From contig CAJJNQ010000002.1 in assembly GCA_905193155.1 (NCBI GenBank), forward strand, positions 12,270 through 76,269: a DNA stretch of 64,000 nt, written 5' to 3'. Positions 2,725 through 6,305 of the stretch are shown here, piece after piece (position 1 is the stretch's first letter; every line of letters starts with the position of its first letter). This DNA is from an uncultured Christensenella sp. (GTDB lineage: Bacteria > Bacillota > Clostridia > Christensenellales > UBA1750). A model generated the notes under the pieces. The model made no database searches. It was not told the DNA's origin and worked only from the letters and a program-made list of their open reading frames with translations. The position numbers were made by a program, and so were the translations under genes.

Positions 2725-2753
2725 ATGTTAACGGATTGTTGAGCGCTTGTCAA
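2725..2753 (-). promoter_or_regulatory. Candidate sigma-A promoter for the GH3 gene
   Basis: On the minus strand, TTGACA-17 nt-TAACAT. It lies about 35 nt upstream of the start codon. Confidence 0.4.
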
Positions 2754-2755
2754 AT

Positions 2756-2787
2756 AAAAAAGCGGGCCCTCCAAAGGAGAAGCCCGC
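2756..2787 (-). terminator. Rho-independent terminator after the glycine-rich repeat gene pair
   Basis: Minus-strand hairpin gcgggc..ctcc aaa ggag..gcccgc followed by a T6 run, 18 nt after the stop at 2805. Confidence 0.7.
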
Positions 2788-2804
2788 AGGTGCTTGCCTG
2801 TGCG

Positions 2805-3659
2805 TCAACCCATGCGCACGATGCCGCCCAGCACCGTGCCGTTGTTCTTGCCGTGCAGACGATCCACACGTCCCTTGATGACTGCGCCGGGAGCGATGTC
2901 GCCCTTGATCTCGGTGACGTCGCCGTCCACGGTGCCGGTCACATCGCCCATGACTTTGCCGAAAACGCTGCCCCCGACATGGCCGCGCAGATCGCCGCCC
3001 AGCATCCGCTTGGTGCGGGTGCGCTCATTGCCGAGGTTGCCGCCGATTTCGCCGCTCATATTGCCGCCGATGGGCGCGAGCACATCTTTGTCCACCGTAC
3101 CGGTCAGGTTGCCGCCGATGGGACCGCAGATGCGGCCGAGAACGTGCCCGTCCATGTTGCCGCCCACCGGGCCGTCCAGATCACCGCGGATTTCCGCGCC
3201 GTTCCCGATGCCGCCACCGATGGGGCCGCTGACTTTGCCCCGAATGATGACCTCGCGGCCGATGGAACCGCCGACCGTGCCGCTGATGTTGCCGTCGATC
3301 TGCGCGCCGTCGCCGATGCCGCCGCCCAGCATGCCGTCCACCTTGCCGCCGATATGCACACCGGGGGCGATGCCGCCGCCGATGATGCCGCTGACATTGC
3401 CGTCCACATCGAAGGTGATGGTGGAGGAGAAGATGCCGCTGACGCTGCTGCGGCTGGGACGCTGTGCCGCGCTGCCCTGCGCCTTGGCCTGTTCCGCGTG
3501 GGGAATCTGTTCGGCGTGCTCAAAGGGAATGCCCTGCGCGTCATTGACAGGCTGCTCGGAGTGCAGCTGTTCGATTTCGGCGTCCGCCTGCTCAGGCGTG
3601 AGGCGCCCGGCAGAAACGTCTTCCAGGATTTCCGAGATATTCTTATACATGCTTGCCAT
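2805..3659 (-). CDS. Glycine-rich repeat protein (about 18-residue periodicity, bactofilin-like beta-solenoid candidate) with an N-terminal SHOCT-like/LiaX-YvlB-like helix motif
   Basis: 284 aa. N-terminus MASMYKNISEILEDVSAGRLTPEQADAEIEQL, a Gln/Ala-rich linker, then repeats such as GNVSGIIGGGIAPGVHIG / GKVDGMLGGGIGDGAQID. RBS GGGAGAG. The start is 18 nt after the stop of the upstream paralogue. Confidence 0.8.
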   Translation of the reverse strand: MASMYKNISEILEDVSAGRLTPEQADAEIEQLHSEQPVNDAQGIPFEHAEQIPHAEQAKAQGSAAQRPSRSSVSGIFSSTITFDVDGNVSGIIGGGIAPGVHIGGKVDGMLGGGIGDGAQIDGNISGTVGGSIGREVIIRGKVSGPIGGGIGNGAEIRGDLDGPVGGNMDGHVLGRICGPIGGNLTGTVDKDVLAPIGGNMSGEIGGNLGNERTRTKRMLGGDLRGHVGGSVFGKVMGDVTGTVDGDVTEIKGDIAPGAVIKGRVDRLHGKNNGTVLGGIVRMG

Positions 3660-3677
3660 GATCTTTTCTCTCCCACT

Positions 3678-4829
3678 TTATTTTTTGCGGATATCGCCGT
3701 AAACCGTGCCGTGGTTGCTGCCGCAGAGCAGACGAACGTCGCCTTTGATGATTGCGCCCGGCAGAATGTCGCCGCGAATCTCACGCACGTCGCCGCCGAT
3801 TTCGCCGGAAACATTGCCGCAGATCACACCGCAGTCGCCGTGCACATGGCCGGAGAGGTCGCCCGTGACCGTGCCACGGTAATCGCCGCTGACCGAACCG
3901 GTCAGATTGCCTGCGATGTCGCCGCTGTAATCACCACCGACCGAGCCGGTGAAGTTACCGGCCACCTTGCCGCGGTAATCGCCGGAAACCTTTCCGGCGA
4001 AATTGCCCGCTATGTCGCCCTTGCAGTCGCCGCTGATGGTGCCGGTGAAGGCTCCGCCGATGGTGCCGGAGAAATCCCCGCCCACCTTGCCGGAAAAGTC
4101 CTTCCCGATATTGGAGGTGCAGTCGCCGCGCACCTCGCCCGCCAGATTGCCTCCGATATCGCCGGAAAGGTCGCCGCCAATGCGCCCGGATGCAGCCAGA
4201 TCGCCGCCAATCATGCCCGAAAGGTCGCCGTCGATCAGTCCGGCCATGCAGCCGATCACCGAGCCGGTCACATCGTCGCAGATGTGCGCGCCCTCGGCAA
4301 CATTGCCCTTGACCGAGCCGTAAAGGCAGCCGCGGATAACTTCGCCACTGCGCACCTCGTCCACGTCGCCGTGAACGTTTCCCGCCGGACCGTCGTAATC
4401 ATCCGAATTGCTGCCCACGCCGAAGGCGCGATTGACGCTCTGGGTGATGCGGGCAGCAAAGCGGTTGGCGCTCTGCGTGATGGAGCTGGCCCAGTCGTGC
4501 GCATCGCCGTTGAAATCGGTGTAGGTCATGCTGCAAACCTTCGGCGGCTTCGGCGGTTTGACATAGTAGCGGTTGGCGTTGCCGCACCCTGTATCGGTGC
4601 TGTTGGAAGGTTCGCTGCGGGGCGCATCCGGCTCGGCAGCCTTTTCGGGCTGCGTGCCTGCGTCAGGCGCTTCGATCCATTCGGTTTGCGGTTTGGCTTC
4701 AGCCTGCGTTTCGTCCGCCTTAGCGGCCTCCTGCGCGTTGTCCAGCGCTGCCATCTCAAACTCGGCTTCGTCGGGGGATAGGTCGCCGCGCGCCACGGCG
4801 GCCAGGATTTCCTGCATATCTTTATACAT
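3678..4829 (-). CDS. Glycine-rich repeat protein (octad G[DN]xxGxxx repeats, 16-residue super-repeat) with an N-terminal SHOCT-like/LiaX-YvlB-like helix motif
   Basis: 383 aa. N-terminus MYKDMQEILAAVARGDLSPDEAEFEMAAL, an acidic Pro-rich linker, and about 18 octads (for example GDYRGKVAGNFTGSVG). The C-terminal cap is shared with the 2805-3659 protein. RBS GGGAGGAA 6 nt upstream. Confidence 0.85.
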   Translation of the reverse strand: MYKDMQEILAAVARGDLSPDEAEFEMAALDNAQEAAKADETQAEAKPQTEWIEAPDAGTQPEKAAEPDAPRSEPSNSTDTGCGNANRYYVKPPKPPKVCSMTYTDFNGDAHDWASSITQSANRFAARITQSVNRAFGVGSNSDDYDGPAGNVHGDVDEVRSGEVIRGCLYGSVKGNVAEGAHICDDVTGSVIGCMAGLIDGDLSGMIGGDLAASGRIGGDLSGDIGGNLAGEVRGDCTSNIGKDFSGKVGGDFSGTIGGAFTGTISGDCKGDIAGNFAGKVSGDYRGKVAGNFTGSVGGDYSGDIAGNLTGSVSGDYRGTVTGDLSGHVHGDCGVICGNVSGEIGGDVREIRGDILPGAIIKGDVRLLCGSNHGTVYGDIRKK

Positions 4830-4989
4830 GATGGGTTCCTCCCGTATGGTCTTTTAGAATAGAGGGATCAGCGGTTGAGCAAAGCGGTCTGCGGAGGTTC
4901 CGGCACATGCCCGGCCTGAATCTCATGCGGGCAGCACCTGCATACAGGATGATTTCCCCCCCTGGTAATCTGGAAAGATGCGGGATAAA

Positions 4990-5355
4990 TTATTTCAGCA
5001 TCTCCATGGCTTGTTCCTGGGTCAGCTCTCCGCGGGAGAGCATTTCCAGCACTTCTTTGCGAGTAGGCTTGTTGTCCGCCGCCTTGGCGGGCTCGATGCC
5101 CAGCGCCGCGATGACCTGATCCAACCGCGCGCGCACCGTAGGATAGCTGATGCCCAGCTCTTTTTCCATTTCGCGGATGTTGCCGCGATTGCGCAGGAAG
5201 GAATAGACAAAGGAACGCTGCTCCGGCGTCAGGGCCAGCAGACGCTCCGCCTGAAAATCGCCTTCAATCGTCGTACCGCAGGAGGGGCAGTGCAGCCGGG
5301 TGACATGCAGTGCCTTGTGGCAGACCGGGCAATCGTGAAGCACATCGTGTGCCAT
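4990..5355 (-). CDS. DUF2089-type protein: N-terminal zinc ribbon, HTH, and a C-terminal SHOCT-like tail
   Basis: 121 aa. CPVC..(12)..CPSC, then FLRNRGNIREMEKELGISYPTVRARLD (HTH), and the tail RKEVLEMLSRGELTQEQAMEMLK. RBS AAAGGAGA. Confidence 0.8.
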   Translation of the reverse strand: MAHDVLHDCPVCHKALHVTRLHCPSCGTTIEGDFQAERLLALTPEQRSFVYSFLRNRGNIREMEKELGISYPTVRARLDQVIAALGIEPAKAADNKPTRKEVLEMLSRGELTQEQAMEMLK

Positions 5356-5404
5356 AACGGCTCATCTCCTTTTCCAGGAGGTCCGGGATTGATTTCTTGA
5401 ATAC

Positions 5405-5432
5405 AGAATATCACAGAATTTAAAATTGTCAA
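5405..5432 (-). promoter_or_regulatory. Candidate sigma-A promoter of the DUF2089 gene
   Basis: On the minus strand, TTGACA-16 nt-TATTCT. It lies about 50 nt upstream of the ATG at 5355. Confidence 0.55.
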
Positions 5433-5439
5433 TAGAAAA

Positions 5440-5478
5440 GCTCAAGATCTTTTAGAATAAATCTAGAAGATTTTGAGC
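5440..5478. promoter_or_regulatory. Near-perfect 17-bp inverted repeat (candidate operator) just upstream of the DUF2089 promoter
   Basis: gctcaagatcttttaga-ataaa-tctagaagattttgagc has 15 of 17 positions complementary. A half-site, TCTTTTAGAATA, recurs at 4850-4861. Confidence 0.5.
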
Positions 5479-5528: not shown

Positions 5529-6305
5529 TTACAGACGCGGGATGTCGCCCACGCCGGAGAGGACGTATTTCGGGCAATAGGGGAAATCGGCCAGCATCTC
5601 GCGCGAGGTCACGCCGGAGAGCACCAGCACGGTATCCAGCTCGGTTTCGATGCCCGCGATCACATCGGTATCCATGCGGTCGCCGATGATGGCGGTGTCG
5701 GCACGGTGGGTGCCCAGGTGCTGCAAGGCATGGCGCATCATCAGCGGGTTGGGTTTGCCGATGAAGTAAGCCTGTTTGCCGGTAGCCAGCTCGATGGGCG
5801 CGATCAGCGCGCGGGTGGCGGGAACGATGCCGCCCTCGACCGGGCCGGTCAGGTCGGGGTTGGTGCCGATGAGGCGCGCACCGGCGCGAACCAGACGCAC
5901 GGCATGCTCCAGCTTTTCAAAGTTATAGCTGCGCGTCTCACCCATGACCACGTAGTCGGGGTTGACGTCGTTCATGCTGATCCCCTCGTTATAAAGGGCG
6001 TTGATGAGGCCCGGTTCGCCGATGACATAGGCGGAGCAGCCGGGGCGCTGGGAGGACAGAAATTTCGCCGTGGCCAAAGCGGAGGTATAGAAGTTCTCTT
6101 CAGGTACGTCCAGCCCAAGGCGGTTGAGCTTCATTTGCAGCTCGCGGGGGGAACGCTCGGAGCTGTTGGTGAGGAAGAGGTACTTTTTGCCGTTGGCACC
6201 GAGCCAGTCGATAAATTCCTTCACGCCCGGCAGCAGATAGTTGCCGTGGTAGATCACGCCGTCCATATCGCAGATAAAGGCCTGTTTGTCTCGTAAGCTC
6301 TGCAT
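5529..6305 (-). CDS. HAD-IIA family hydrolase (NagD/sugar-phosphatase like)
   Basis: 258 aa. DMDGVIY motif I, LTNSS motif II, GKPNP and GDRMDTDV motifs. RBS GGAGGA. Confidence 0.85.
   Translation of the reverse strand: MQSLRDKQAFICDMDGVIYHGNYLLPGVKEFIDWLGANGKKYLFLTNSSERSPRELQMKLNRLGLDVPEENFYTSALATAKFLSSQRPGCSAYVIGEPGLINALYNEGISMNDVNPDYVVMGETRSYNFEKLEHAVRLVRAGARLIGTNPDLTGPVEGGIVPATRALIAPIELATGKQAYFIGKPNPLMMRHALQHLGTHRADTAIIGDRMDTDVIAGIETELDTVLVLSGVTSREMLADFPYCPKYVLSGVGDIPRL

What the first reader, a model, noticed from the sequence alone, without database searches (positions are those of the whole stretch)
2805..5478. DUF2089 zinc-ribbon/HTH protein plus two paralogous glycine-rich solenoid-like proteins, all three carrying the same SHOCT-like helix motif
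Three co-directional minus-strand genes form a compact unit with its own promoter (5405-5432) and terminator (2756-2787).
- The first is a DUF2089-type protein with CPVC/CPSC zinc ribbons and an HTH (GISYPTVRARLD).
- Its last roughly 23 residues (RKEVLEMLSRGELTQEQAMEMLK) resemble the first roughly 28 residues of both downstream proteins (MYKDMQEILAAVARGDLSPDEAEFEMAAL and MYKNISEILEDVSAGRLTPEQADAEIEQL).
- After that motif, each downstream protein has an acidic/Pro/Gln-rich linker and 150-230 aa of Gly-rich repeats.
- Both end in a shared cap (GDV.EI[RK]GDI.PGA.IKG.V...G..(H/N)GTV.G.I).
- I see no signal peptide or TM segment in either.

The helix motif recalls the SHOCT-like / LiaX-YvlB N-terminal module linked to envelope-stress sensing in Firmicutes. 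Here the usual PspC and holin-like partners are absent, and the repeat part looks bactofilin-like rather than like the DUF4097 beta-repeat. A shared interaction module on a putative DNA-binding protein and two putative polymer-forming proteins suggests a regulator-sequestration or filament-coupled switch. I do not know of any described example.
Basis: partly seen in the sequence, partly recalled or inferred. Interest (0 to 1): 0.7.

Follow-up and report, generated by a model that had tools for sequence, protein, structure and literature searches.

The report
DUF2089 regulator with two glycine-rich solenoid partners
A gut Clostridia bacterium has a small operon in which a putative DNA-binding regulator and two paralogous glycine-rich beta-solenoid proteins all carry the same short two-helix tag; this is a rare new variant of an operon type already described by comparative genomics, and its function has never been tested.

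Summary
Three co-directional minus-strand genes lie between a strong promoter and a terminator:
- A, 4990-5355: DUF2089 protein (zinc ribbon, HTH, tail).
- B, 3678-4829, and C, 2805-3659: paralogues (BLASTP 2e-24).

All three carry a SHOCT-like two-helix module. A profile of the B/C heads matches a profile of DUF2089 tails (hhalign P=2.4e-9). An iterated model finds exactly these three modules in the 64-kb window.

The pairing is not new. Pfam has PF22746 'SHOCT-like_DUF2089-C', and Ravi et al. [quoted passage not shown] In 80 species-level DUF2089 loci, 70 have a co-directional SHOCT-like partner, often fused to Toastrack/DUF4097.

What is new is 'X'. It is a confidently predicted beta-solenoid (pLDDT 95-98) built from G-x-hydrophobic-x tetrapeptides, 16-18 residues per coil. 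It has no detectable relation to Toastrack and only weak, inconclusive bactofilin signals. Every such protein found sits directly after a DUF2089 gene, and only 2 of the 80 loci have it.

My preferred mechanism is inferred, not shown: the matching tags couple the regulator to its solenoid partners.

Verdict: new variant of a known kind, moderate interest.

The parts
5405..5432 (-). Promoter of the unit: -35 TTGACA, 16-nt spacer, extended -10 TG-n-TATTCT
   Evidence: Best consensus match in the region. The same layout sits upstream of DUF2089 in L004, L011, L007, L003 and L094.
5365..5370 (-). Ribosome-binding site AGGAGA, 9 nt before the ATG of gene A
   Evidence: Read from the sequence. GGAG is conserved in relatives.
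4990..5355 (-). Gene A: DUF2089-family putative transcription regulator, 121 aa
   Evidence: Pfam PF09862 at 6.9e-24 and PF22747 at 1.1e-15, both above their cut-offs. 2479 homologues found; the closest named ones are from Candidatus Spyradocola.
5242..5331 (-). A residues 9-38: four-cysteine zinc ribbon (CPVC...CPSC)
   Evidence: PF22747 match at residues 9-38. The cysteines are invariant in alignment A3.
5092..5232 (-). A residues 42-88: DUF2089 helix-turn-helix (ELGISYPTVR invariant)
   Evidence: PF09862 match at residues 42-88; alignment A3.
4993..5067 (-). A residues 97-121: SHOCT-like two-helix tail (RKEVLEMLSRGELTQEQAMEMLK)
   Evidence: PF22746 E=0.0018, below cut-off. Orthologues at 81-83% identity carry PF22746 in precomputed annotation. 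hhalign against B/C heads P=2.4e-9. Iterated HMM iE=1.7e-3.
4830..4989 (-). 160-nt A-B spacer with no convincing ORF and no stable RNA fold
   Evidence: fold z-score 0.14. In relatives this position is 25 nt (L004) or holds extra small ORFs with a SHOCT-like motif (L011, L091).
3678..4829 (-). Gene B: acidic (pI 4.5) SHOCT-like-headed glycine-rich beta-solenoid protein, 383 aa
   Evidence: B-type orthologues are present in L001, L004-9, L011, L012 and L091. B-like single copies are present in L003, L092-094.
4740..4829 (-). B residues 1-30: SHOCT-like head (MYKDMQEILAAVARGDLSPDEAEFEMAAL)
   Evidence: AF2 helices at 5-13 and 19-41. Profile evidence.
4383..4739 (-). B residues 31-149: acidic, proline-rich low-confidence linker with one predicted helix (110-136)
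   Evidence: pLDDT below 50 over residues 40-114 and 132-148. Composition.
3681..4382 (-). B residues 150-383: beta-solenoid of G-x-hydrophobic-x tetrapeptides, 16 residues per coil, with a conserved C-terminal cap
   Evidence: pLDDT 90-98 with a repeating 16-residue strand pattern. Lag-4 autocorrelation is 0.55 for Gly and 0.60 for hydrophobic residues. DNA repeats have 24/48-nt spacing.
2805..3659 (-). Gene C: paralogue of B, 284 aa, with a near-neutral solenoid
   Evidence: C-type orthologues are present in L001, L004-9, L011, L012 and L091.
3561..3650 (-). C residues 4-33: SHOCT-like head (MYKNISEILEDVSAGRLTPEQADAEIEQL)
   Evidence: PF22746 E=0.12 at residues 8-32. AF2 helices at 8-16 and 22-34. 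Profile evidence.
3453..3560 (-). C residues 34-69: disordered Gln/Pro/acidic linker containing the short motif DAQGIPFE
   Evidence: pLDDT below 50 over residues 36-64. The motif recurs in C-type proteins of five lineages.
2808..3452 (-). C residues 70-284: beta-solenoid, 18-residue coils then 16-residue coils, with the same C-terminal cap as B
   Evidence: pLDDT 95-98. 54-nt DNA repeat spacing. Strain variants differ by exactly 18, 36 or 54 residues.
2756..2787 (-). Intrinsic terminator after gene C (GGGCTTCTCC-TTT-GGAGGGCCC plus T-run)

Best explanation
**What it is**
- This is a chromosomal, host-composition operon of a Christensenellales (Candidatus Spyradocola-like) bacterium.
- Gene A is a putative DNA-binding regulator whose last 25 residues form a SHOCT-like two-helix hairpin.
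- Genes B and C are anciently duplicated cytoplasmic proteins. Each begins with the same kind of hairpin, continues with a disordered acidic linker, and ends in a glycine-rich beta-solenoid built from G-x-hydrophobic-x tetrapeptides (16-18 residues per coil) with a conserved cap.
- This solenoid stands where other genomes have a Toastrack/DUF4097 beta-helix or a small beta domain.

**Proposed mechanism (inferred, not shown)**
- The three matching hairpins are assembly tags. They bring the regulator and the two solenoid proteins into one complex.
- The state of the solenoid scaffold (free, self-associated, or bound to a still unknown and probably membrane-proximal or envelope-related cue) then sets how much regulator is free to act at the operon's own promoter, and possibly at other promoters.

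**Shown**: gene structure, domain identities, paralogy, shared module, strict linkage.
**Inferred**: physical contact between the tags, autoregulation, the nature of the signal.

The confidence given (0.45) is for the whole statement including the inferred mechanism; the anatomical part alone I would put near 0.9.
For: **Domains of A**.

**Shared module**
- Sub-threshold PF22746 hits fall at the same N-terminal position in 8 of 10 B/C relatives.
- A model built only from B/C heads retrieves, among 9,493 six-frame segments, almost only canonical SHOCT-like heads (E down to 8e-6) and DUF2089 tails.
- hhalign of heads against tails gives P=2.4e-9.
- The window has exactly three hits.

**General rule**
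- 76 of 140 ORFs downstream of DUF2089 in 80 species-level loci match PF22746 and 30 match DUF4097.
- 8 of the 9 long SHOCT-headed partners examined from other lineages are SHOCT-like+DUF4097. The tenth protein in that scan was the L011 solenoid itself.
- 70 of 80 loci have a co-directional partner module, and none has one on the opposite strand.

**Strict linkage of the solenoid type**
- Every SHOCT-headed solenoid found lies directly after DUF2089 in at least eight distinct loci: the window, L001, L003, L004-6, L007-9/L012, L011, L091, L092/93 and L094.
- B and C form separate orthologous groups that are retained across lineages whose DUF2089 proteins are only 67% identical.

**Solenoid**
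- AF2 pLDDT is 95-98.
- Natural indels come in whole coils: 18, 36 or 54 aa in C and 32 aa in B.

**Tags as protein-protein modules rather than lipid anchors**
- The heads carry net charge -3 to -6 over 32 residues.
- No membrane protein is encoded in the operon.

**Literature**
- Ravi et al. 2024 describe the DUF2089 architecture and propose Lia-like signalling for Toastrack contexts.
- The LiaX C-terminal domain inhibits LiaFSR (PMC6936494).
Against: - No experiment exists on any DUF2089 protein. The literature search found only annotation mentions.
- For classical SHOCT, the authors' own first experiments did not support oligomerisation (PMC3581485).
- Ravi et al. favour membrane anchoring for SHOCT-like modules.
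- No conserved operator was identified near the promoter. The large palindrome next to the -35 varies by compensatory changes, as a terminator would.
- Single-sequence support for the A tail and the B head is weak.
- The solenoid's oligomeric state is unknown. Sequence profiles also hit the trimeric T4 gp5 beta-helix.
Confidence: 0.45

Rival explanations
1. Co-localisation, not mutual binding. Each SHOCT-like hairpin independently docks its protein at the inner face of the membrane, as Ravi et al. predict. The three proteins meet there only because they share an address, and the solenoids act as sub-membrane platforms like Toastrack.
For: - This is the prediction in PMC11237479 for SHOCT-like modules and Toastrack.
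- Canonical partners of DUF2089 in other genomes include Toastrack, and in the literature LiaI-LiaF-TM and PspC.
- In L092/L093 a TM2-domain membrane protein follows the solenoid gene.
Against: - B/C heads are strongly acidic (net -3 to -6), which fits poorly with binding an anionic bacterial membrane.
- No membrane protein is encoded in or next to the window's unit.
- A DNA-binding protein held at the membrane needs a release step, and no component for one is visible.
Confidence: 0.2
2. Cytoskeletal reading. B and C are bactofilin-like self-polymerising filaments, and A is merely their transcription regulator. The shared hairpin reflects common descent of a mobile module and has no coupling role.
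For: - Weak Bactofilin (PF04519) hits in two B-type relatives, E=7.8e-4 and 3.7e-3, and PDB 2n3d at E=0.042.
- A long solenoid with a conserved end cap could stack end to end.
- In Clostridium algidicarnis a weak-bactofilin gene sits just upstream of DUF2089.
Against: - The window's B and C do not hit PF04519 even at E<=1, and every hit is below the cut-off.
- No bactofilin structure appears among the Foldseek matches printed.
- hhalign against the C. algidicarnis neighbour gives P=0.28.
- The repeat is a tetrapeptide with four short strands per 16-18-residue coil, unlike the three-strand bactofilin winding.
- The strict and exclusive linkage of the head module to DUF2089 operons argues that the module matters.
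Confidence: 0.15
3. Trimeric needle. The repeats fold as an intertwined three-chain beta-helix like the C-terminal domain of phage T4 gp5, so the AF2 monomeric solenoid is an artefact of modelling one chain. The unit could be a domesticated phage-derived element.
For: - Pfam Gp5_trimer_C 1.5e-5.
- PHROG 430 'baseplate hub subunit and tail lysozyme' 5.2e-11 on B residues 199-330.
- PDB gp5 chains at 1e-4 to 1e-3.
- Similar G-x-V-T arrays occur in many tail-fibre-like proteins.
Against: - All hits are confined to the periodic repeat and fall below Pfam's cut-off (25.5 against 30.9 bits).
- The period here is 4, with two glycines per 8 residues, not the gp5 V-x-G-x5 octad.
- There are no phage genes nearby, composition is host-like, and the chromosomal neighbours are conserved.
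- Natural indels are multiples of 16 or 18 residues, matching the coils of the monomeric model.
Confidence: 0.05
4. Extracellular sentinel like LiaX. B and/or C reach the cell surface by a non-classical route, and their helical heads bind antimicrobial peptides or other envelope-active molecules.
For: LiaX (helical N-domain plus beta-rich C-domain) is surface exposed and released into the medium, and its N-domain binds daptomycin and LL-37 (PMC6936494). The acidic heads could bind cationic peptides.
Against: - There is no Lia two-component system, PspC or LiaF in the neighbourhood.
- There is no DUF4097.
- The partner here is a cytoplasmic DNA-binding protein carrying the same module.
- Ravi et al. 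argue that these modules are intracellular.
Confidence: 0.05

Closest known systems
[quoted passage not shown]
   Same: - The regulator has the same architecture.
- The next gene(s) start with the same SHOCT-like module.
- The genes are co-directional and tightly linked.
- The partner carries a beta-helical body.
   Different: - The body is not Toastrack/DUF4097 and not the small ~129-aa/~89-aa pair common in Bacillus and Clostridium. It is a glycine-rich tetrapeptide-repeat solenoid.
- There are two paralogous partners.
- No sigma/anti-sigma, LiaF-TM or PspC genes are present.
YvlB (Bacillus subtilis) / LiaX (Enterococcus) family: SHOCT-like head plus DUF4097 Toastrack
   Same: A bi-helical head, a linker and a beta-helical C-terminal body, with no signal peptide. 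The system has a regulatory role: the LiaX C-domain inhibits LiaFSR.
   Different: - No DUF4097 similarity.
- The partner is a one-component DUF2089 regulator, not PspC/LiaFSR.
- The operon context is different.
Bactofilins (PF04519; e.g. BacA, PDB 2n3d)
   Same: Cytoplasmic right-handed beta-helix proteins with disordered termini and coils of about 18 residues. Weak profile hits were found.
   Different: - Hits are below threshold and absent for the window's own proteins.
- The solenoid is much longer (about 13-14 coils).
- The periodicity is a tetrapeptide, and there is no fold match.
- Polymerisation was not tested.
Phage T4 gp5 C-terminal triple-stranded beta-helix (PF22178, PHROG 430)
   Same: Glycine-punctuated periodic repeats that are detected by the same profiles.
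   Different: - Period 4 rather than 8.
- Non-phage chromosomal context.
- AF2 gives a single-chain solenoid.
- Scores are below Pfam's cut-off.
Ca2+-dependent beta-helical antifreeze protein MpAFP region IV (PDB 3p4g), the nearest solved fold
   Same: A narrow, glycine-rich parallel beta-solenoid with coils of about 19 residues. It is the best Foldseek hit: E=1.3e-3 for B and 5.8e-2 for C.
   Different: TM-scores are only 0.2-0.3. The antifreeze protein is extracellular and calcium-bound, with no sequence relation, so the resemblance is at fold class only.

Membership tests
DUF2089 family (Pfam PF22747 + PF09862) | N-terminal four-cysteine zinc ribbon | tested here: met
   PF22747 scores 57.8 bits against a cut-off of 27.6, at residues 9-38. 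C9, C12, C23 and C26 are invariant in A3.
DUF2089 family (Pfam PF22747 + PF09862) | Central DUF2089 helix-turn-helix | tested here: met
   PF09862 scores 83.7 bits against a cut-off of 33.4, at residues 42-88.
DUF2089 family (Pfam PF22747 + PF09862) | DNA binding and transcription regulation | not testable with these tools
   Inferred from the HTH only. No experimental paper on any DUF2089 protein was found.
SHOCT-like_DUF2089-C (PF22746), tail of A | Match to the PF22746 profile at the C-terminus of a DUF2089 protein | tested here: inconclusive
   - Pfam gives 18.2 bits against a cut-off of 27 (E=0.0018) at residues 97-121.
- Orthologues P0034 and P0042 (81-83% identical) carry PF22746 in precomputed annotation.
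- Iterated HMM iE=1.7e-3.
- Homology to the family is clear from alignment A3, but Pfam's own threshold is not reached.
SHOCT-like_DUF2089-C (PF22746), heads of B and C | Match to the PF22746 profile or to bona fide members | tested here: inconclusive
   - Pfam: C gives E=0.12 and B gives no hit.
- 8 of 10 relatives hit at the same position with E from 2e-4 to 0.11, all below the cut-off.
- A model built from B/C heads finds canonical PF22746-type heads at E down to 8e-6 and almost nothing else.
- hhalign against DUF2089 tails gives P=2.4e-9.
- The feature is met by profile-profile methods and not met by Pfam's gathering score.
Toastrack / DUF4097 (PF13349) | Profile match to DUF4097 | tested here: not met
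   - No hit at E<=1 for B and C, nor at E<=10 for ten relatives.
- The same scan finds DUF4097 in 30 partner ORFs of other lineages.
Toastrack / DUF4097 (PF13349) | Profile-profile or fold similarity to Toastrack-type beta-helices | tested here: not met
   - hhalign of solenoid profiles against an alignment of 8 DUF4097 partners gives P=0.79 and 0.95.
- Foldseek hits to DUF2807-type structures 3lyc, 3jx8 and 3pet reach only E of about 2.
Bactofilin (PF04519) | Profile match to the bactofilin domain | tested here: not met
   - No hit at E<=1 for the window's B and C.
- Two of ten relatives hit at 20.1 and 17.9 bits against a cut-off of 27.9.
- The A2 profile against PDB 2n3d gives E=0.042.
Bactofilin (PF04519) | Self-polymerisation into filaments | not testable with these tools
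   Needs purified protein with EM, or in vivo imaging.
YvlB/LiaX family | SHOCT-like head fused to DUF4097, in an operon with PspC or under LiaFSR control | tested here: not met
   A head is present, but there is no DUF4097 and no PspC or Lia genes nearby.
T4 gp5 C-terminal beta-helix (PF22178) | Profile match above threshold, with octad V-x-G-x5 repeats | tested here: not met
   25.5 bits against a cut-off of 30.9. The dominant period is 4, not 8. PHROG 430 at 5e-11 is restricted to the repeats.
T4 gp5 C-terminal beta-helix (PF22178) | Intertwined homotrimer | not testable with these tools
   Only single-chain AF2 was available.

The most novel reading that the evidence does not exclude
The SHOCT-like hairpins form a specific hetero-oligomeric 'zipper' that tethers a DNA-binding regulator to a previously unrecognised class of cytoplasmic tetrapeptide-repeat beta-solenoid proteins. 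These proteins self-assemble from B plus C into a polymer or scaffold. The operon would then be a filament- or scaffold-coupled transcription switch, and the many DUF2089 -> SHOCT-like+X operons across Bacillota and Chloroflexota would all work by tag-mediated sequestration of the regulator.
Probability: 0.15. Interest if true: 0.75.

Novelty: new variant of a known kind. Interest (0 to 1): 0.45.

Why it matters
DUF2089 regulators are widespread. Yet no member has been studied experimentally.

This locus is a compact, membrane-protein-free version of the system: one regulator, two soluble partners, and three copies of the same 25-30-residue module. That makes the central question directly testable with simple binding and reporter assays. 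The question is whether SHOCT-like modules are protein-protein assembly tags or membrane anchors.

The partner body also defines a narrow, confidently predicted beta-solenoid built on a four-residue repeat, with natural whole-coil length variants. This is of interest for repeat-protein structure and design.

The organism is an uncultured gut Christensenellales lineage that is common in metagenomes, so any function found would annotate many genomes. The practical significance is otherwise modest.

Tried and rejected
- **NCBIfam, PADLOC.** No meaningful hits for B or C; only noise for A. I found no sign of a known defence system.
- **Foldseek of both AF2 models against PDB and of B against BFVD.** Only generic beta-helices came back, with TM 0.1-0.3. 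No specific fold family could be assigned.
- **Toastrack relationship.** Rejected after hmmscan and hhalign.
- **Bactofilin relationship.** Not established.
- **Mobile element or prophage origin.** Rejected. GC content is host-like, the flanking genes are housekeeping, and Spyradocola genomes share the same neighbours.
- **Whole-library HMM search with the B-family profile.** It returned 2440 hits, but nearly all match only the periodic repeat: tail-fibre-like G-N-V-T-G-D arrays and giant repeat proteins. It therefore measures the repeat type, not the family. Only 8 of the top 150 have the SHOCT-like head.
- **Operator search.** The long palindrome at 5440-5478 is the upstream gene's terminator, with compensatory stem changes between relatives. 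No conserved operator was found.
- **A-B spacer.** No ORF and no stable RNA structure. No Rfam family anywhere in the window.
- **Source names for the Spyradocola B/C proteins.** The exact sequences are not in the protein collection. Family sizes from the protein searches are therefore lower bounds.
- **Direct HMM from B/C heads against the window's own A tail.** Only E=0.39. Significance appears only at profile-profile level or after one iteration.

Full report
**1. What is in the sequence**

Three minus-strand ORFs occupy 2805-5355: A 4990-5355 (121 aa), B 3678-4829 (383 aa) and C 2805-3659 (284 aa).

- The best sigma-70-like site of the region is TTGACA-16 nt-TG-n-TATTCT at 5432-5405. An AGGAGA ribosome-binding site lies 9 nt before the ATG of A.
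- The 17-bp-stem hairpin at 5440-5478 with its T-tract follows the stop of the upstream HAD-hydrolase gene (5529-6305). Its stem changes by compensatory substitutions between relatives. It is therefore that gene's terminator and not an operator.
- A hairpin plus T-run follows C at 2781-2767.
- The promoter layout is kept upstream of DUF2089 in L004, L011, L007, L003 and L094.
- GC content is host-like. The flanking genes are ordinary: GH3 glycosidase, HAD hydrolase, PrmA.
- B and C are 18 nt apart. A and B are 160 nt apart, with no ORF and no stable RNA fold between them.

**2. The three proteins**

*Protein A.*
- A matches Pfam Zn_ribbon_DUF2089 (57.8 bits) and DUF2089-HTH (83.7 bits), both well above their cut-offs.
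- Its last 25 residues match PF22746 'SHOCT-like_DUF2089-C' weakly (E=0.0018, below the cut-off).
- The closest named homologues are from Candidatus Spyradocola, Christensenellales.

*Proteins B and C.*
- They are paralogues: BLASTP 2e-24; profile-profile P=3e-35.
- Neither has a TM segment.
- AlphaFold2 gives each two N-terminal helices, a disordered linker and a very confident beta-solenoid. In C the solenoid is residues 70-284 at pLDDT 95-98. In B it is residues 150-383 at pLDDT 90-98.
- The strand pattern repeats every 16 residues in B. In C it repeats every 18 and then every 16 residues.
- The underlying unit is a tetrapeptide, G-x-hydrophobic-x. Autocorrelation at lag 4 is 0.55 for Gly and 0.60 for hydrophobic residues.
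- DNA repeats are spaced 24/48 nt in B and 54 nt in C, at 60-77% identity.
- Close strain variants of C have 284, 266, 248 and 230 residues. They lack exactly one, two or three 18-residue coils. A variant of B lacks 32 residues. This independently fits the coil lengths of the model.

**3. Is the shared helix motif real?**

On single sequences the evidence is thin. PF22746 gives E=0.12 for C and nothing for B. A model of B/C heads hits the window's own A tail at only E=0.39.

At family level the evidence is strong.
- Eight of ten B/C relatives give sub-threshold PF22746 hits at the same N-terminal position.
- The B/C-head model, searched against 9,493 six-frame segments (1.05 million residues) of the window and all fetched loci, retrieves almost only canonical SHOCT-like heads (E down to 8e-6) and DUF2089 tails.
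- hhalign of the head profile against a profile of 82 DUF2089 tails gives probability 96% and P=2.4e-9.
- After one iteration the model has exactly three hits in the whole window: B, C and the A tail (iE=1.7e-3).

**4. Conservation**

*The solenoid type.*
- A-B-C is kept with the same neighbours in Spyradocola merdavium contigs (L004-6).
- It is kept with different downstream neighbours in a lineage whose DUF2089 is 67% identical (L007-9, L012).
- L001 has A, B, a 62-aa fragment with a SHOCT-like motif, and C.
- L091 has A, two extra small proteins with a SHOCT-like motif, B and C.
- L003 and L094 have A plus one long B-like protein.
- L092/93, from an AT-rich organism, have A plus a 180-aa short solenoid, followed by a TM2 protein.
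- B-type and C-type proteins form separate orthologous groups.
- Every SHOCT-headed solenoid found lies directly after DUF2089.

*DUF2089 in general.*
- I scanned one genome per GTDB species with a DUF2089 alignment and found 594 relatives. The 80 best loci span Bacillota, Chloroflexota and others.
- Of 140 downstream ORFs, 76 match PF22746 and 30 match Toastrack/DUF4097.
- Eight of the nine long SHOCT-headed partners from other lineages are SHOCT-like+DUF4097. The tenth protein in that scan was the L011 solenoid.
- 70 of 80 loci have at least one co-directional partner module, and none has one on the opposite strand.
- Only 2 of the 80 loci (L011, L012) have the glycine-rich solenoid.

**5. 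What the solenoid is not**

- *Not Toastrack.* There is no DUF4097 signal in 12 family members even at permissive thresholds. hhalign against an alignment of DUF4097 partners gives P=0.79 and 0.95.
- *Bactofilin not established.* There is no hit for the window's proteins, two relatives score below the cut-off, and PDB 2n3d scores E=0.042.
- *No specific solved fold.* Foldseek finds only generic beta-helices. The best is the Ca2+-dependent antifreeze solenoid 3p4g (E=1.3e-3 for B and 5.8e-2 for C, TM about 0.25-0.3). The viral library adds nothing specific.
- *The gp5 caveat.* Profiles of the T4 gp5 trimeric beta-helix hit the repeats: Pfam 25.5 bits against a cut-off of 30.9, PHROG 430 at 5e-11, PDB at about 1e-4. 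The period there is 8, not 4, and the context here is not phage. I keep an intertwined trimer as a low-probability caveat, because only single-chain models could be made.
- *The repeat type is common, the family is not.* A whole-library HMM search found 2440 proteins sharing the repeat type, many of them tail-fibre-like. Only 8 of the top 150 have the SHOCT-like head.
- *Undercounting.* The Spyradocola B/C sequences are missing from the protein collection, so family counts are lower bounds.

**6. Relation to the literature**

- Pfam already names PF22746.
- Ravi et al. 2024 (PMC11237479) split DUF2089 into ZnR, HTH and SHOCT-like parts. [quoted passage not shown] They link DUF2089 with Toastrack proteins in predicted Lia-like envelope signalling, and they predict that SHOCT-like modules anchor proteins at the inner membrane face.
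- Eberhardt et al. 2013 proposed oligomerisation for classical SHOCT, but their first experiments did not support it.
- LiaX shows that a protein with a helical N-domain and a beta-rich C-domain can sense and regulate.
- No experimental work on DUF2089 was found.

**7. Mechanism**

*Shown.* A putative one-component regulator and two paralogous solenoid proteins share one module and are inseparable in genomes.

*Inferred.* The modules assemble the three proteins, and the solenoid scaffold controls how much regulator is available.

I favour protein-protein contact over lipid anchoring for two reasons. The heads carry net charge -3 to -6, and the unit encodes no membrane protein. This is an argument, not a test. 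The signal is unknown, and an envelope-related cue is suggested only by analogy.

**8. Verdict**

The shared-module idea is right but already described. The bactofilin label is not established. The switch model is untested.
- It is a new variant of a known kind. The new element is the tetrapeptide-repeat solenoid partner and its duplication.
- Interest is 0.45.

Noticed in passing
window 2808-3452 (gene C) and 3681-4382 (gene B); proteins P0148-P0153, P0001/P0002: Near-identical strain variants of C are 284, 266, 248 and 230 aa. They differ by in-frame loss of one, two or three 18-residue coils. A B variant (348 aa) lacks 32 residues, which is two 16-residue coils, plus a PPK triplet. The shorter forms are rare clusters (1-5 members against 352), so assembly artefacts are not excluded.
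   Followed up: partly
L001 5416-5604; L011 2360-2728; L091 321-707 and 727-945: Relatives carry extra small ORFs with a SHOCT-like motif between DUF2089 and B, or between B and C (62, 122, 128 and 72 aa). L091 therefore has five SHOCT-like modules in one operon. In the window the corresponding A-B position is an empty 160-nt spacer.
   Followed up: partly
window 2736-4781, + strand: A 681-aa ORF runs antisense to B and C. Similar antisense ORFs occur in L004-6, and they even score against the solenoid HMM (1e-15). This is a shadow ORF produced by the GC-rich periodic repeats, not a gene.
   Followed up: partly
window 3453-3560 (C linker); also C-type proteins of L001, L011, L091 and P0154: A short motif, DAQGIPFE, is conserved inside the otherwise disordered and variable linker of C-type proteins in five lineages. 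It is absent from L004 and L007. It may be a short linear interaction motif.
   Followed up: no
L010 5034-5849 (Clostridium algidicarnis): A 271-aa protein with a weak Bactofilin hit lies immediately upstream of DUF2089. DUF2089 is followed there by a 123-aa PF22746 protein and an 84-aa protein. hhalign of that upstream protein against the B/C solenoids is not significant (P=0.28).
   Followed up: partly
L019, L021, L026, L033, L039, L042, L051, L054, L062, L064, L078 and others (Chloroflexota and relatives): In these loci DUF2089 is followed first by a roughly 320-460-aa protein and then by a SHOCT-like-headed protein. From their N-terminal sequences the first proteins look Toastrack-like, but they were not scanned individually. 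Several of them end in a further SHOCT-like module (e.g. LEILRALERGEIDVDEA), so the module can sit at either end of the partner.
   Followed up: no
L023, L024, L028, L030, L035, L037 and others (Bacillaceae, Clostridium): The commonest DUF2089 operon has a roughly 129-aa SHOCT-headed protein (MK.EI..VL.LVEEGKI...) followed 4 nt later by a roughly 89-aa protein (MLKVKVKVKDKRFSIPVPY...). The body of the first and the whole of the second were not scanned individually against Pfam and were not among the families most often matched. This is a second uncharacterised partner type.
   Followed up: no
L092 4684-4911 / L093 1530-1757: In the AT-rich lineage with a single short (180-aa) solenoid partner, a 75-aa TM2-domain membrane protein follows. 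It is the only membrane protein seen next to a solenoid-type unit.
   Followed up: no
protein library, e.g. P0181, P0198, P0203, P0208, P0215, P0190: Arrays of G-[ND]-[VL]-[TS] tetrapeptides occur in more than 2,400 representative proteins. Many look like phage or giant-virus fibre proteins. Some are apparently cytoplasmic, for example P0215 with a C-terminal HTH-like region. Whether these repeats are homologous or convergent with B and C is open.
   Followed up: partly
L004/L007/L011 B and C proteins: Exact sequences of these called genes are absent from the 15-billion-protein collection, although their contigs are indexed. Low-complexity proteins of this kind are therefore under-represented in the protein searches.
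   Followed up: partly
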